This document shows, in pieces, positions 1 through 10,460 of a stretch of 64,000 nucleotides of DNA; within the stretch, counting starts at the first letter, position 1; the number at the start of each line of letters is the position of its first letter. The DNA lies in the IMG/VR virus record IMGVR_UViG_3300010883_000011, positions 1-64,000 of that record; one strand, written 5' to 3'. The position numbers and the translations under genes were made by a program. The DNA is from a virus. The notes under the pieces were generated by a model, which had not been told where the DNA came from, made no database searches, and saw nothing but the letters and a program-made list of their open reading frames with translations.

Positions 1-72
1 GGGGGTGGGGGGAGGGGGGGGGGGGGGGGGGGCGGGGGGGTGGGCGGGGCAGGGGGGGGGGGGGTGGGGGGG
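1..72. other. Near-pure poly-G at contig end, probable sequencing artefact
   Basis: Almost all G at the sequence end; typical of two-colour chemistry dark cycles. Confidence 0.7.
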
Positions 73-285
73 GGTCTGGCATGTCGTAGTGGTTCGGCTA
101 TGTCCGGCTCGGCATGTAGCAAGGCTGTGGTGCGGAAAGGCAAGACTCGGCACGTCGTGATGGCCTGGGCTGGCGAGGCGTGTATTGGATGGGCGTTGAG
201 TGTCATAGAGGTTCGGAGTGTGTTGATTCGGCGTGGTCTGTCGTACTGGTGTGAAGTGTGGTGGTTCGGCGGGGTCTGTAGTTAT
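73..285. repeat. 5-nt periodic GGY-NN array punctuated into 33-48 nt units; candidate guide-RNA array
   Basis: Phased pentamers (ggtct ggcat / ggttc ggcta tgtcc ggctc ggcat / ggcct gggct ggcga ggcgt ...) broken by GT(C/A)(G/A)(T/C)+3 nt at 83,116,154,202,240,278. Confidence 0.8.
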
Positions 286-293
286 GGGTGAAC

Positions 294-344
294 GGGGAGG
301 CACTCGGACCTTGTCACAGAAGACTTGGTCACCCGTGCCTCCCC
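294..344. terminator. Long stem-loop between RAMP gene and array (terminator or processing signal)
   Basis: Perfect 10-bp inverted repeat GGGGAGGCAC (294-303)/GTGCCTCCCC (335-344) plus inner GACC/GGTC and GTC/GAC pairs. Confidence 0.7.
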
Positions 345-356
345 ACTCCCTTTGCT

Positions 357-1244
357 CTACGCGTAGGCTACGCCGGTGGCCCCATTGTCGGGCTCATCCT
401 CTACGGAACCGTTCTCGATCTTCTTTTTCAGGCCTGGAGCCTTGCCACCCTTTACCCACGGGATGTTGGTGAGGCGTTCCAAACGCACAATCCAAAACTT
501 TCCGTGACCCTGTGAACGACAAGCTCCCAAGCCGTCTTCCTGTCCGTGTGTCAGGATCTTGACGACTTCCTCGTCCTTGAAGGTAGCGGTTGCGCGGTTC
601 TTCGGCAGGTTGGCGGGAGCCCGAATGCAGAACCGAATCGTGGCACCAACGATGCGTTCATGTTGCTTGATGCAAGATCGCGGTCCCTGTGGCCCCATGA
701 CATGAGCGCACATTTCAACGTAGTCGTCGGCTTCGGTGATGACCTCGCCGTCGCGGTAGAAGTTGATCTGTTGCCCTGCGGGACCGTCCAACGGGTTTCC
801 GTCCTCGTCAGCAGCTACGACTCCAATGAGGTGCTGGAAGGTCTGCTTCAAGCCACGGTGTTGAACGAACAAACCCTGCGTGCTTGCCATCTCCCGAATC
901 ATGGCCTTCACCTGTCGGGGTTCAATGTAGGGGCCAGCCTTGTTGATCTTGAAGATCGTGCGGGTCTTTTCCGTTTCGGCGTCGATGGTGGCCTCCACGT
1001 CAGCGCCGAACATTTCTTTCATTCGACGACCGACGATCTCCTGAATCCTCTCTTCGGTGGGAGGTTCAAGCCCGAGCTTGTTGGCCCGCTTCGCTTCACG
1101 GCGTAGACTCGACTCGATGTGCGTTCGGAACACTTCCGGGTTCTTGGGATTGCCGCCGAGAACGCTATCAAGGAATTCGATCTCCACGGTATACAGGTTG
1201 GTGGTCTTAAGGAGCGTTTCTCCAACATTGTCGGTGAGGTCCAT
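357..1244 (-). CDS. Stand-alone Cas7/Csm3-like RAMP superfamily protein
   Basis: RAMP motifs in order: YTVEIEFLDSVLGG, PYIEPRQVKAMIRE (cf. P.IPGSSlKG.lR), Gly loop GLGACRSQGHGKF; AGGA RBS. Confidence 0.8.
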   Translation of the reverse strand: MDLTDNVGETLLKTTNLYTVEIEFLDSVLGGNPKNPEVFRTHIESSLRREAKRANKLGLEPPTEERIQEIVGRRMKEMFGADVEATIDAETEKTRTIFKINKAGPYIEPRQVKAMIREMASTQGLFVQHRGLKQTFQHLIGVVAADEDGNPLDGPAGQQINFYRDGEVITEADDYVEMCAHVMGPQGPRSCIKQHERIVGATIRFCIRAPANLPKNRATATFKDEEVVKILTHGQEDGLGACRSQGHGKFWIVRLERLTNIPWVKGGKAPGLKKKIENGSVEDEPDNGATGVAYA

Positions 1245-7582: not shown

Positions 7583-9091
7583 TCATTTGTGCATTCCTCT
7601 GGTCATGCGCCCGAAAGAAGAAGCCGGGTCTTGCGCCCGGTCCAGGTCTTCGGATTCATCGCAAAGGGATTGGACGGCGGATGAGATGGACCCGCCATTG
7701 ACGGTCAAACCGTATACGCGGAGGCCACGTTCCTTGCATTCGTTGAGGTCACGGATGATGTCGGCAGATGCGCTTGCACCGCCATCGGTCACGAAGATGA
7801 GGTCTGCTCGGTCTTCTCGCACACCGGAGTTCAGCGCATAGTCGAAGATGACATTGAAGTCCGTGCCGCCTTCGCAGTTTTGGTTTGCGACAGCAAGCGC
7901 CAGCGGTCCAACACCGCCAAGGTCAGCCCAGACTTCTTCCGGGTCACGCGGCGAAAGCTGCTGTGCCTTGCCACTTGCGGTCAAGCGGTAGACGCTGCGG
8001 ATCCTCGTATCAAAGCCGATGATTGTGACCTCTCGCTTTTGTTGGGCTGCTTGGCCGATGCAGGCGAGGCCGATGGCCCTGGCCCAGAGGTGAGGGTCGC
8101 CGTGCATTGAACCGGACTCGTCAAGCATCACGACTATCGGACCACGTCCCTGCGGTTCGCGTCCCTCCATCGAATACTGGAGTGCGCGGGCCTCGGCGAT
8201 GTTCAAGAGAAGCAGCCATTCCAGATCTTCGTCCATCAGCTTCATTGTCTCGGAGGGGAGGAGCCGGGGGATGTCGTCACCGAATTCGACGCCAACGATC
8301 TCTTCCTTGTTCTGCGTGACAGTGGGCTTTGAGCGGCCAGCGATGCGTTGGATTCTACCTGCTCGCCGGATAGCCTCTTGCATCCTGGGATCGTTCATCA
8401 GGCGTTCTGCAAGGTTCATACGCGCCGGGTCGTGTTGCATGTGTTGTGGCGGGCAGTGTTCGGTTCCGGGTGCCAGACCAGAAAGCGCCTCTTTTCCATC
8501 AGCTACTTCGTCTGCGGCTTTCTGGCAGGCAGACCGCATCGCAGCCTTCATGCCGTCCTGTGCTGACGGTAGACCTTCGGGGCACGGGTCTTCTCCGTTT
8601 TCGCTCCGTTCTTCCTCTTGCCGTGACTTCTCAATAAACTGTTCAAGCTGCTCGGCTGTTCTTTGGATGACGCCAGCAGCAGCCAGAGCGGAGAAGTCCG
8701 GGTCGCCTGCGACTTGTTGACGCAGGCTGTCCCATTCGGGAAGCTCCCCCAGCATGTCCTGCATCCAGGTCATCCACTGTGGAGCGGTGCTGTTTTCGAT
8801 GCGTTCCGGGTTTCCATAGAGGCGTGAAAAGACTTCGCCCCCGAAGACGTTTGCGTCATCGTTGGTGAGGGACGGGAGATCCCTCGGTGCGTCGTCCACC
8901 CCGCCCGCTGCGCCGTCGTTGCGGTATGCGTTCATCAGCGCATCCTCTACCGCAAAATGGGCCATACCAAGTGCGCCTTCCTCGCTCACCCGGCCATCGT
9001 AGAGGCAGCGGTGCCACCGCGAGACATCGAAGGTACCCCGCCGGTTTTCCTCGGTGAAGAAAGCTGCTGATTTCGTTTGGTTGAAAGCCAT
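7583..9091 (-). CDS. VWA-domain protein (ViaA/CoxE-like)
   Basis: MIDAS VMLDESGSM, GGTDF, FVTDG; next to MoxR ATPase. Confidence 0.85.
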   Translation of the reverse strand: MAFNQTKSAAFFTEENRRGTFDVSRWHRCLYDGRVSEEGALGMAHFAVEDALMNAYRNDGAAGGVDDAPRDLPSLTNDDANVFGGEVFSRLYGNPERIENSTAPQWMTWMQDMLGELPEWDSLRQQVAGDPDFSALAAAGVIQRTAEQLEQFIEKSRQEEERSENGEDPCPEGLPSAQDGMKAAMRSACQKAADEVADGKEALSGLAPGTEHCPPQHMQHDPARMNLAERLMNDPRMQEAIRRAGRIQRIAGRSKPTVTQNKEEIVGVEFGDDIPRLLPSETMKLMDEDLEWLLLLNIAEARALQYSMEGREPQGRGPIVVMLDESGSMHGDPHLWARAIGLACIGQAAQQKREVTIIGFDTRIRSVYRLTASGKAQQLSPRDPEEVWADLGGVGPLALAVANQNCEGGTDFNVIFDYALNSGVREDRADLIFVTDGGASASADIIRDLNECKERGLRVYGLTVNGGSISSAVQSLCDESEDLDRAQDPASSFGRMTRGMHK

Positions 9092-9115
9092 GATGTTTTC
9101 CCTGTTGATGTCTAT

Positions 9116-9144
9116 ATTGTAACCGGGGTCCGGTTACTTGTCAA
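9116..9144 (-). promoter_or_regulatory. Sigma-70 promoter with perfect palindromic operator
   Basis: TTGACA-17-TACAAT; GTAACCGG-GGT-CCGGTTAC (9119-9137). Confidence 0.8.
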
Positions 9145-9230
9145 TGCCTTTGTGGGGATTTATTTCTTTTATTTGGAGGGTAGGTTCTGGCCAGACCCCA
9201 ACAGACTGACCAGAACCGTGACACCGTCCA

Positions 9231-9246
9231 CCCCGCCGGAGCGGGG
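9231..9246 (-). terminator. GC hairpin after AAA+ gene
   Basis: CCCCGC-UCCG-GCGGGG (UNCG tetraloop) next to the stop; no U-tract on minus strand. Confidence 0.5.
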
Positions 9247-9248
9247 GT

Positions 9249-10460
9249 TTAGATGCCCAACGCCTCCCTAGCGATACGCGCCACCTTCAGTTGCATCGCA
9301 GCGATCTTGTCCGACAATCCCTCAACCTGTCCCGATTGGCCGAGCTTCTGAAGTTCCTTGACGATCTTCTTCAACTCGGAGTTGATTGCGCCAAGCGCCC
9401 CGGAATCGCCAATCGCCGATGCCTGCTCCACGTTGCGGCGAATCATATCACCCGTTCTCGGATCGAGGACTTCGATGCCGTTTGCGTAGATTTCCACCGC
9501 CGCGTCATGCAGCTTCATAGCTGCTTCAAGGTCTGGACTCACCAGCTTGGCGACACAGTTGAGAACCTTCGGATGGTCGACTTCTGGGTCCGCGACGATG
9601 ATATCTGCCAGCAGCAGGAGATCGGTCGGCTCGCAGACCATGCGACCCTGAACAACGGCATAGGCGCAAAGGGCGTCGATGATGTTGACCAGGGAGCGGT
9701 CACTGACTTCGATTGCGTGCTGCCGCCCGAGTTCTTCCAATACGTCGCACAGTAGTTCCTCAATGGGAGAATAGTCGACGTTCTCGGCGGCGTTCCGCAG
9801 GCATTCCAGGCCCGCCGGTGACAGGGTATTGTGAACCTCGATTGTCTCGCCCTTCCGCTTCATCGCCATAAGACGCAACCGATCTGCCCGGTCCTGCAAG
9901 GGTGTCACCCAGCGCCGAAAGAGGAACCTGTCCCAAAGAGCGTGCAGATCGTCCGACTGCGGCAATTCGTTGGAACATGCCATCACCATTTGGAGGGGGA
10001 TGTCGATGCGCCCGCAGGTGCCGTTGTCGTATTGCTTTTCATTGATGGCAGTGAGGATGCTGTTGTTTGCACCGGACGAGCCCTTCCAGATTTCGTCCAG
10101 CAGCGCCACCTGACACTGGCCGAGACGGTTGGTCAGAATCCGCTTGTATTGCCCCTTCTTCAAGAGAGGGAGATCGTAGGGTCCGAAAAGTTCTTCTTGC
10201 GTGGTGTCCTTGCGGATCAGATAGGTGAAGAAGTCCATTCCGAGCGCCTTTCCAAAAGCACTTGTGAGGGCTGTCTTCGCCACGCCGGGAGGTCCACCGA
10301 AGAAGACGTTTTTGCGGGCGATAATAGCGACGAAAAGAATCAGGATTTCCTGGTTCCGTTGAATGAACCGGCTATCCATTTCTCTCATCAGCGAATCCAT
10401 CTCGCCGTGGGCTGCTTCAAACTCTTTGGTGTCTATTGCCTGGAGGGTCTTGGTGGCCAT
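9249..10460 (-). CDS. MoxR/RavA-type AAA+ ATPase
   Basis: Walker A GPPGVAKT, Walker B LLDEIWK, SNELP, ALWDRF. Confidence 0.9.
   Translation of the reverse strand: MATKTLQAIDTKEFEAAHGEMDSLMREMDSRFIQRNQEILILFVAIIARKNVFFGGPPGVAKTALTSAFGKALGMDFFTYLIRKDTTQEELFGPYDLPLLKKGQYKRILTNRLGQCQVALLDEIWKGSSGANNSILTAINEKQYDNGTCGRIDIPLQMVMACSNELPQSDDLHALWDRFLFRRWVTPLQDRADRLRLMAMKRKGETIEVHNTLSPAGLECLRNAAENVDYSPIEELLCDVLEELGRQHAIEVSDRSLVNIIDALCAYAVVQGRMVCEPTDLLLLADIIVADPEVDHPKVLNCVAKLVSPDLEAAMKLHDAAVEIYANGIEVLDPRTGDMIRRNVEQASAIGDSGALGAINSELKKIVKELQKLGQSGQVEGLSDKIAAMQLKVARIAREALGI

What the first reader, a model, noticed from the sequence alone, without database searches (positions are those of the whole stretch)
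83..285. Second-level grammar in the array: an 8-nt punctuation splits it into 5n+3 units
Seen: the pentamer phase shifts only at GTCGT-agt (83), GTAGC-aag (116), GTCGT-gat (154), GTCAT-aga (202), GTCGT-act (240) and GTAGT-tat (278). Spacings are 33, 38, 48, 38, 38, giving 5, 6, 8, 6, 6 pentamers per unit. NN series on +: tc-ta-cc-tc-at; gt-gc-aa-aa-tc-ac; ct-ct-ga-gt-tt-tg-gt-gt; tc-gt-tt-tc-gt-ct; gt-gt-gt-tc-gg-ct. Inference: the punctuation marks processing sites or handles defining individual crRNA-sized RNAs. An ordinary microsatellite would not be expected to show this.
Basis: partly seen in the sequence, partly recalled or inferred. Interest (0 to 1): 0.85.

Follow-up and report, generated by a model that had tools for sequence, protein, structure and literature searches.

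The report
Punctuated VIPR guide-RNA array in phage
The five-base repeats with an eight-base "punctuation" are real and are the guide-RNA array of a VIPR system (a CRISPR-related, phage-borne RNA-guided DNA binder first described in 2026); the punctuation most likely marks the borders between many short individual guides.

Summary
Observation confirmed. Window 83-285 is the vipr-proximal quarter of a ~770-nt GG(Y)NN pentamer array that runs across the ends of an 85.8-kb marine phage contig. The pentamer phase jumps by +3 at GTCGT-like motifs: 18 of 20 spacings in this phage and 109 of 121 in 14 related loci are 5n+3.

The punctuation is an in-phase G-T-Y-G-Y pentamer plus a 3-nt linker. Its 8-mer differs between systems: GTCGT-NNN here, and GTCATATT, GTCGCAAT, GTTGCAWT and GTCGCTTC in relatives. 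Three related marine arrays share identical punctuation-bounded units, in the same order, interrupted by whole unshared units. The unit is therefore the evolving module.

RNA ends, the transcribed strand and the targets remain untested.

The class is already published, and this scan has noted VIPR-type arrays in at least 312 other genomes. This is a new member, possibly the paper's unverified "staggered" array type.

The parts
75..285 (+). vipr-proximal part of the vrRNA array: five full units of GG(Y)NN pentamers (5, 6, 8, 6, 6) plus a short terminal remnant. The rest of the array lies outside the window at G000:C1:85166-85772.
   Evidence: independent assemblies
83..90 (+). punctuation 1, GTCGT-AGT (in-phase GTYGY pentamer + 3-nt linker)
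116..123 (+). punctuation 2, GTAGC-AAG (degenerate copy)
154..161 (+). punctuation 3, GTCGT-GAT
202..209 (+). punctuation 4, GTCAT-AGA (degenerate copy; GTCAT is the regular form in relative L271)
240..247 (+). punctuation 5, GTCGT-ACT
278..285 (+). punctuation 6, GTAGT-TAT, the last one before the hairpin. Relatives also end their array with a punctuation followed by a hairpin.
294..344 (.). strong stem-loop (10-bp GC-rich outer stem) between the array and the stop codon of vipr. A hairpin at this place is conserved in relatives L203/L276 and L272-L275. Probable bidirectional terminator or insulator.
   Evidence: 101-nt fold, -45.4 kcal/mol, z -3.4
357..1244 (-). vipr: 295-aa stand-alone Cas7-like RAMP protein

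Best explanation
The stretch is part of the guide-RNA (vrRNA) array of a VIPR system.

By homology with the characterised SUSP1 system, the G-rich strand is transcribed. One Vipr protomer (the 295-aa RAMP encoded at 357-1244) binds each pentamer. It sequesters the GG(Y) bases and presents the variable bases for gapped pairing with double-stranded DNA of a competitor, which silences it.

The 8-nt punctuation is the boundary between guides. Its first five bases (G-T-Y-G-Y) occupy the next pentamer slot but lack the second G. The following three bases are a linker that resets the phase. I infer that this ends one Vipr mini-filament and starts the next, so the ~770-nt array encodes about 21 short guides of 4-9 pentamers (28-48 nt each). 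These guides would either be cut apart in the exposed linker or act as beads on one transcript. In this clade the punctuation replaces the ~40-nt structured 3' tail of SUSP1 vrRNAs.

Shown: the anatomy, its conservation, the RAMP fold and unit-wise turnover between strains. Inferred: the transcribed strand, filament termination, cleavage and targeting.
For: 1. The 5n+3 grammar is highly non-random. A motif-blind HMM places 16 of 19 phase shifts as +3 at GT[CA][GA].

3. The papers describe Vipr plus GGY/NN pentamer vrRNAs with one protomer per repeat. My HMM recovers the four published SUSP1 vrRNAs.

4. A DNA-pattern scan for the grammar alone found two viral contigs (L143, L151) whose arrays adjoin homologues of the 295-aa protein.

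5. Arrays lie beside 13 of 19 distinct viral homologues and 3 of 14 genomic ones. 73 of 90 phase shifts are +3, and 109 of 121 punctuation spacings in 14 loci are 3 mod 5.

6. The 8-mer is system-specific: GTCATATT, GTCGCAAT, GTTGCAWT, and GTCGCTTC x10.

7. Arrays L274, L275 and L284 share 100%-identical units in collinear order, separated by whole unshared units.
Against: No RNA evidence was available: no RNA holder was listed.

In every member of this clade the G-rich strand is antisense to vipr, unlike SUSP1. No sigma-70-like promoter was found on either strand.

Units of 3-9 pentamers specify only 6-18 target bases under the published 1-nt-skip rule, fewer than the published 9-16 repeats. 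This raises doubt that each unit acts alone.

No target was found. Own-genome matches equal those of permuted controls. An IMG/VR scan with the 8-pentamer unit gave 33 hits, about the chance level, with no convergence of other units.

SUSP1 residues D177 and W178, which hold the two G's, are not conserved here (A241, C242), and position 3 is only 62-76% pyrimidine.
Confidence: 0.7

Rival explanations
1. The locus is a VIPR array, but the punctuation is an internal hinge rather than a guide border. Several units, or the whole transcript, act as one long guide, and the +3 linker relieves strain or matches a fixed gap in the target.
For: Units are short. In L257 some have only 3-4 pentamers, which is 6-8 coded bases and too few for unique targeting. 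There is only one hairpin, at the array end, rather than a structured tail per unit.
Against: Unit number and length vary freely (20-40 nt bodies). Strains swap whole units while keeping their neighbours unchanged, which would scramble a long composite guide. An 8-nt insert cannot keep a register of one protomer per 5 nt.
Confidence: 0.15
2. The functional RNA is the C-rich strand, read through from vipr. It would act as an NN-RCC guide array of a diverged Vipr, or simply as a long C-rich, G-poor Rho-dependent terminator between vipr and the next gene.
For: The C-rich strand is the sense strand of vipr and of the next gene in every clade member. In L257 the array starts 11 nt after the vipr stop codon. 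The G-binding residues of SUSP1 Vipr are not conserved. Established knowledge: Rho loads on C-rich, G-poor unstructured RNA.
Against: All characterised and catalogued vrRNAs carry the G's in the RNA. A Rho site needs neither a 5n+3 grammar nor system-specific octamers nor unit turnover. A strong hairpin separates vipr from the array here and in relatives.
Confidence: 0.08
3. The array is a DNA-level element, such as a packaging or replication site with iterons, a G-quadruplex or R-loop-forming region at the genome terminus.
For: It lies at the contig ends, between the two transcription blocks. GG runs every 5 nt could form two-tetrad quadruplexes.
Against: In relatives the same arrays travel with the vipr gene. 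They lie in mid-contig in relatives (L205, L207, L215) and beside a vipr homologue in a betaproteobacterial MAG contig (L257), on either side of vipr. The variable bases turn over between strains, which is unlike iterons.
Confidence: 0.04
4. It is a degenerate microsatellite or higher-order satellite, or an assembly artefact linked to the poly-G end.
For: Poly-G at window 1-74. Two assemblies break at the same place.
Against: Two other assemblies give the same sequence. The grammar is conserved across distant relatives while the sequence is not.
Confidence: 0.02

Closest known systems
VIPR systems (Vipr RAMP protein + vrRNA), reference type II of Escherichia phage SUSP1; bioRxiv 10.64898/2026.04.26.720920, 10.64898/2026.04.26.720927, 10.64898/2026.10.15.759431
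   Same: Phage-borne stand-alone Cas7-like RAMP gene flanked by long non-coding arrays of GG(Y)NN pentamers with variable NN. Several guides are arranged in series. The genome has no CRISPR repeats, and I recognised no cas gene among the ORFs I screened.
   Different: SUSP1 vrRNAs have 12-15 pentamers followed by a ~40-nt structured tail and lie on the vipr strand. Here units have 4-9 pentamers, the 'tail' is an unstructured 8-mer, about 21 units abut directly, the G-rich strand is antisense to vipr, position 3 is only weakly pyrimidine, and Vipr is 295 aa rather than 195 aa, with extra helices and a different G-loop.
'Staggered vrRNA arrays with overlapping vrRNAs' mentioned in the VIPR discovery paper (fig. 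S18 legend)
   Same: [quoted passage not shown] That fits units that abut with no spacer. The paper says this architecture was not confirmed by RNA sequencing.
   Different: The figure is not held, so I could not check whether its arrays show the GTYGY+3 punctuation, the 5n+3 rule or this Vipr clade. The legend speaks of a 1-nt overlap, not of an 8-nt separator.
CRISPR arrays and type I/III crRNAs
   Same: Serial guides separated by a short conserved element. The effector protein has a Cas7 fold. Unit-wise gain and loss occurs between strains. An 8-nt constant tag recalls the 8-nt 5' handle of type I/III crRNAs (from my own knowledge, a resemblance only).
   Different: There are no 23-50-nt repeats and no cas1/cas2. 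The 'spacer' is itself a pentamer scaffold whose information sits in 2-3 of every 5 bases.
TRAP-type RNA binding (11 (G/U)AG triplets with 2-3-nt spacers, Bacillus trp leader)
   Same: A 5-nt periodic triplet-plus-spacer RNA motif, each repeat read by one subunit of an oligomer (from my own knowledge).
   Different: The protein fold is unrelated, and TRAP sites have no punctuation and no variable information-bearing bases. Considered early and dropped once the RAMP fold was shown.

Membership tests
VIPR system | Sequence relationship to experimentally characterised Vipr (SUSP1) | tested here: inconclusive
   hhalign of two 35-sequence profiles: probability 63%, E 6.8e-5, 125 columns covering thumb and G-loop. 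The single-sequence comparison was not significant (E 0.083). R179 is matched by R243; D177 and W178 are not conserved.
VIPR system | Non-CRISPR context: no CRISPR array and no other cas genes | tested here: met
   No 18-mer recurs three times, or twice within 120 nt, anywhere in the 85.8-kb genome. Pfam, PHROG and NCBIfam scans of neighbouring and large ORFs gave no cas family. Not every ORF of the genome was scanned.
VIPR system | Tandem YNNGG/GGYNN repeats (at least 4 units) flanking vipr, with conserved GG(Y) and variable NN | tested here: met
   123 pentamers: G 91% at position 1, G 80% at position 2, and under 0.2 bit of information at positions 3-5. Y at position 3 is only 75% even among clean GG pentamers, so the motif is closer to the paper's 'NNNGG' variant.
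VIPR system | Invariant 3' tail after each repeat tract (~40 nt, structured, in the SUSP1 clade) | tested here: not met
   Only an 8-nt unstructured GTYGY-NNN element follows each tract. No Rfam family and no hammerhead. This fails the SUSP1-clade form. The paper allows other array architectures.
VIPR system | vrRNAs expressed and bound by Vipr as a filament, one protomer per repeat | not testable with these tools
   No RNA run holds the phage.
VIPR system | Targets matched by the 1-nt-skip rule, absent from the own genome | tested here: inconclusive
   No self-match above permuted controls, as the paper also reports. No convincing external target.
VIPR system | Accessory vap gene beside vipr | tested here: inconclusive
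   The upstream genes (120 aa and 251 aa) have no informative family. A ~190-aa upstream neighbour is conserved in 7 related loci (6 distinct; L208/L209 duplicate one locus) but absent here.
CRISPR-Cas | Direct repeats of 23-50 nt separating unique spacers, with adaptation genes cas1/cas2 | tested here: not met
   no such repeats. The only conserved element is 5-8 nt long.

The most novel reading that the evidence does not exclude
This Vipr clade (marine and other phages, plus some chromosomal copies) uses a distinct array design. It has dozens of mini-guides of 4-9 repeats, each closed by an in-phase G-U-Y-G-Y 'stop pentamer' and a 3-nt linker, instead of a structured tail. The stop pentamer would set the filament length. 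The A/U-rich linker would be the only exposed site for host RNases. With position 3 nearly unconstrained, the code may read up to three bases per repeat. Whole guides are exchanged between strains like CRISPR spacers, although no adaptation genes were recognised. If so, the punctuation is the simplest known guide-delimiting signal, and these arrays would be a compact way to multiplex many guides.
Probability: 0.3. Interest if true: 0.6.

Novelty: new member of a known kind. Interest (0 to 1): 0.4.

Why it matters
VIPR is a newly described RNA-guided DNA-binding system proposed to predate CRISPR. Only its type II form, with long guides and a structured tail, has been studied in depth.

This locus and its relatives show that a whole clade packs many very short guides into one array, separated only by a system-specific 8-mer that shifts the repeat phase by three. 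That gives a clear and cheap experimental handle on three questions: how guide length and filament ends are set, how guides are matured without Cas6 or a ribozyme, and how guide repertoires turn over between phage strains.

For annotation, the 5n+3 rule gives a simple way to call individual guides in such arrays. The system itself is already known, so the gain is incremental.

Tried and rejected
1. CRISPR reading: rejected, because the genome has no repeats of CRISPR size.

2. Coding repeat: rejected. The periods of 5 and 5n+3 are not multiples of 3, and the long open frames across the array come from base composition. Two pattern hits elsewhere (L150, L159) were 15-nt coding repeats and were discarded.

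3. TRAP- or CsrA-like binding sites, Rho site, origin or packaging site, G-quadruplex or R-loop: considered before the literature search. They were demoted once the RAMP fold and the VIPR papers were in hand.

4. Rfam: no family and no hammerhead in the arrays.

5. Promoter and terminator scans: nothing on either strand, here or in L257, so the transcribed strand is not settled.

6. RNA evidence: no RNA holder listed. The DNA contigs laid were short and only confirmed 185-397.

7. Targets. Own genome under skip rules 0-3, with NN or NNN words: no better than permuted guides. An IMG/VR scan with the 8-pentamer unit gave 33 hits, about the chance level. Other units did not converge on those loci (6 extra near-matches against 4.25 in controls). 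The skipped bases did not match position 3.

8. The 251-aa neighbour as an accessory protein: its N-terminal domain occurs in 80 phage loci, of which only L026 has clear arrays (three more, L022, L040 and L042, have only short array-like stretches, and L048's is a 15-nt repeat). Not supported.

10. The paper's supplementary files and figures are not held. I therefore could not assign a VIPR type or check identity with the 'staggered' arrays.

Full report
**What is there.** The window is the first 64 kb of an 85,772-bp IMG/VR virus record that CheckV rates as complete.

- Bases 1-74 are almost pure G.
- From 75 to about 285 the + strand is G/T-rich (43% G, 16% C) and reads as pentamers that start with GG.
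- The last 64 bases of the contig repeat window 78-141 at 92% identity, and the 600 bases before them have the same design.

So the finding is the end of a ~770-nt array that spans the junction of a circular or terminally redundant genome. It holds about 21 punctuation marks. Poly-G also contaminates 85668-85704, so the exact join and the unit count are uncertain.

**Is it more than chance?**

- In 83-285 the autocorrelation of G is 0.35 at lag 5. It averages 0.44 at lags 33/38/43 but -0.07 at lags 35/40/45.
- None of 2000 dinucleotide-preserving shuffles reached either value (z 4.9 and 9.5). For the whole array z is 7.5 and 12.
- A hidden Markov model that tracks only the GG-Y phase, with no knowledge of the motif, found 19 phase shifts. 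Sixteen add three bases (p 1e-7 if shift sizes were random), and all sixteen lie within 4 nt of the end of a GT[CA][GA] motif.
- Eighteen of 20 motif-to-motif spacings in this phage are 3 mod 5.
- The sequence itself is confirmed by an independent JGI contig (two substitutions in 328 nt) and by a Logan contig.

**What it is.** The gene that ends 13 nt beyond a strong hairpin (294-344) encodes a 295-aa protein with no Pfam, PHROG or NCBIfam match.

- With 35 homologues it gives a confident model (pLDDT 86.8).
- Every listed Foldseek match in the PDB is a Cas7-type RAMP such as Cmr4, Csm3 or type VII Cas7 (69 hits at E<=1e-3).

My HMM recovers the four published vrRNAs of phage SUSP1 around its two-gene locus. 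A profile of the SUSP1 Vipr family aligns to the profile of the present family over 125 columns, including the thumb and the glycine-rich loop (E 6.8e-5, probability 63%). The genome has no CRISPR-like repeats. The locus is therefore a VIPR system, and the finding is its guide array.

**The punctuation in homologous loci.** A scan of IMG/VR for three GTCGT-NNN-GG marks at unit spacing returned, among many coding repeats, two contigs with the same grammar. Both encode homologues of the 295-aa protein beside the array.

Searching with the protein alignment gave 20 viral, 14 genomic and 80 metagenomic loci.

- Arrays lie within about 1.3 kb of vipr (most within 100 nt) in 13 of 19 distinct viral loci and 3 of 14 genomic loci. 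Ten of the genomic loci are Poribacteria MAGs without detectable arrays.
- The G-rich strand is always opposite to vipr, and the array may lie upstream or downstream of it.
- 73 of 90 phase shifts in own + viral loci are +3; all 20 shifts in three genomic loci are also +3.

Aligned on the motif, three distant systems show the same logo. GG sits at -20, -15, -10 and -5. Then G-T-C-G fills the next pentamer slot, and GG follows at +8, +13 and +18. The mark is therefore an in-phase pentamer that has lost its second G, followed by three extra bases.

The octamer is specific to each system:

| Locus | Octamer |
|---|---|
| This phage | GTCGT-NNN |
| L271 | GTCATATT |
| L272/L279 | GTCGCAAT |
| L273-L276, L283, L284 | GTTGC-AWT |
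| L257 (betaproteobacterial MAG) | GTCGCTTC, ten times |

Over 14 loci, 109 of 121 spacings are 3 mod 5. With the octamer removed, the unit bodies in L274, L283 and L284 are almost all exact multiples of five, from 20 to 40 nt.

**Units as modules.** Three related arrays (L274, L275, L284; arrays and the sequence printed on either side are near-identical) share units that are 100% identical and collinear. Between them lie whole units present in only one or two of the three. Gain, loss or replacement therefore happens in punctuation-bounded cassettes. This is what one expects if each unit is one guide. It argues against a single composite guide.

**How it most likely works.**

- Shown: the anatomy, its conservation, the RAMP fold and the cassette turnover.
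- From the literature: one Vipr protomer binds each pentamer, two neighbouring protomers clamp G1, G2 and Y3, and the NN bases are presented for pairing.
- Inferred: a pentamer with U in place of G2 cannot be clamped. It ends the filament, and the 3-nt linker lets the next filament start in a new phase. The result would be about 21 mini-guides of 28-48 nt, cut apart in the exposed linker or kept on one transcript.

In the marine relatives the linker is A/U-rich (AAU, AUU). From memory this resembles the RNase E preference, but I did not test it and it fits this phage less well.

The hairpin between the array and vipr, also present in relatives, would end both convergent transcripts.

**Open points.**

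- Strand. The G strand is favoured because all known vrRNAs carry the G's. In addition, a 0.8-kb C-rich, G-poor untranslated RNA should be a strong Rho substrate (general knowledge). However, the C strand is the sense strand of both flanking genes, and I found no promoter on either strand.
- Guide length. Units of 4-9 repeats code 8-18 bases under the 1-nt-skip rule, fewer than the published 9-16 repeats. Position 3 is only 62-76% pyrimidine in this clade against 91-100% in SUSP1 and L026, and two G-binding residues of SUSP1 Vipr are replaced. The reading rule may therefore differ.
- Targets. None was found in the phage's own genome or in IMG/VR beyond chance.

**Comparison and novelty.** The system belongs to a published class, and this scan has already noted VIPR-type arrays in at least 312 genomes.

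Compared with the studied type II, this clade differs in several ways: very short guides, an unstructured 8-nt separator in place of a ~40-nt tail, the antisense position of the array, a weak Y at position 3, and a larger Vipr protein.

The discovery paper mentions 'staggered arrays with overlapping vrRNAs', not confirmed by RNA sequencing. That may be this design. The figure is not held, so I could not check.

I rate the finding a new member of a known kind. Its molecular role is still untested.

Noticed in passing
window 1-74 and G000:C1:85668-85704: Near-pure poly-G at the contig start and G-runs at the contig end, probably a two-colour sequencing artefact. The two ends overlap (85705-85768 matches 78-141 at 92%), so the 'linear' record is really a closed or terminally redundant genome with an uncertain join inside the array. 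An independent assembly (L270) breaks at the same base.
   Followed up: partly
L026:2401-3454 (+) and L206:1378-3876 (+): A different VIPR array style. These are unpunctuated tracts of 12-39 strict GGYNN pentamers on the sense strand of the flanking genes. In L026 each ends in GG plus the hairpin GTGCCAATGGCAC, often just upstream of a ribosome-binding site and ATG. L206 carries these on one strand and a punctuated GTCGC array on the other.
   Followed up: partly
L257:2277-2668 (betaproteobacterial groundwater MAG): The cleanest example of the grammar: eleven units of 3-6 pentamers separated by GTCGCTTC (10 of 12 octamers identical). It starts 11 nt after the vipr stop codon. GCTTCGGC could form a UUCG mini-hairpin with the next unit's first bases.
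   Followed up: partly
L258-L268 (Candidatus Poribacteria MAGs): Ten sponge-symbiont genomes carry chromosomal homologues of this Vipr (24-27% identity). My detector found no GG-pentamer array within 3 kb of them. They may use another repeat consensus or be orphan genes.
   Followed up: no
L208:2041-2607, L210:2423-2980, L215:2324-2890 and four more loci: A ~190-aa protein with no Pfam match lies directly upstream of vipr, on the same strand, in 7 related loci (6 distinct; L208/L209 duplicate one locus). It is a candidate accessory (vap) gene of a subclade. It is absent from this phage and its closest relatives.
   Followed up: partly
G000:C1:84733-85044 (-), i.e. L002:529-840: An FmdB-type zinc-ribbon protein (Pfam Zn_ribbon_8, E 2e-12) is the next gene on the vipr strand beyond the array. 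In L274/L275/L284 the gene at the same place is preceded by the palindrome GTGAACA-AAG-TGTTCAC.
   Followed up: no
window 146 and 191 compared with L270: The only two differences between the two assemblies of this phage fall inside the array. One changes a GG to CG (GACTC GGCAC to GACTC CGCAC). The other changes position 3 of a degenerate pentamer (GTATT to GTGTT).
   Followed up: no
window 7583-10460 (-): A MoxR-type AAA+ ATPase (bpMoxR, E 7e-40) lies next to a VWA-domain protein in the early block, as another first-reader note says. Not examined further.
   Followed up: no
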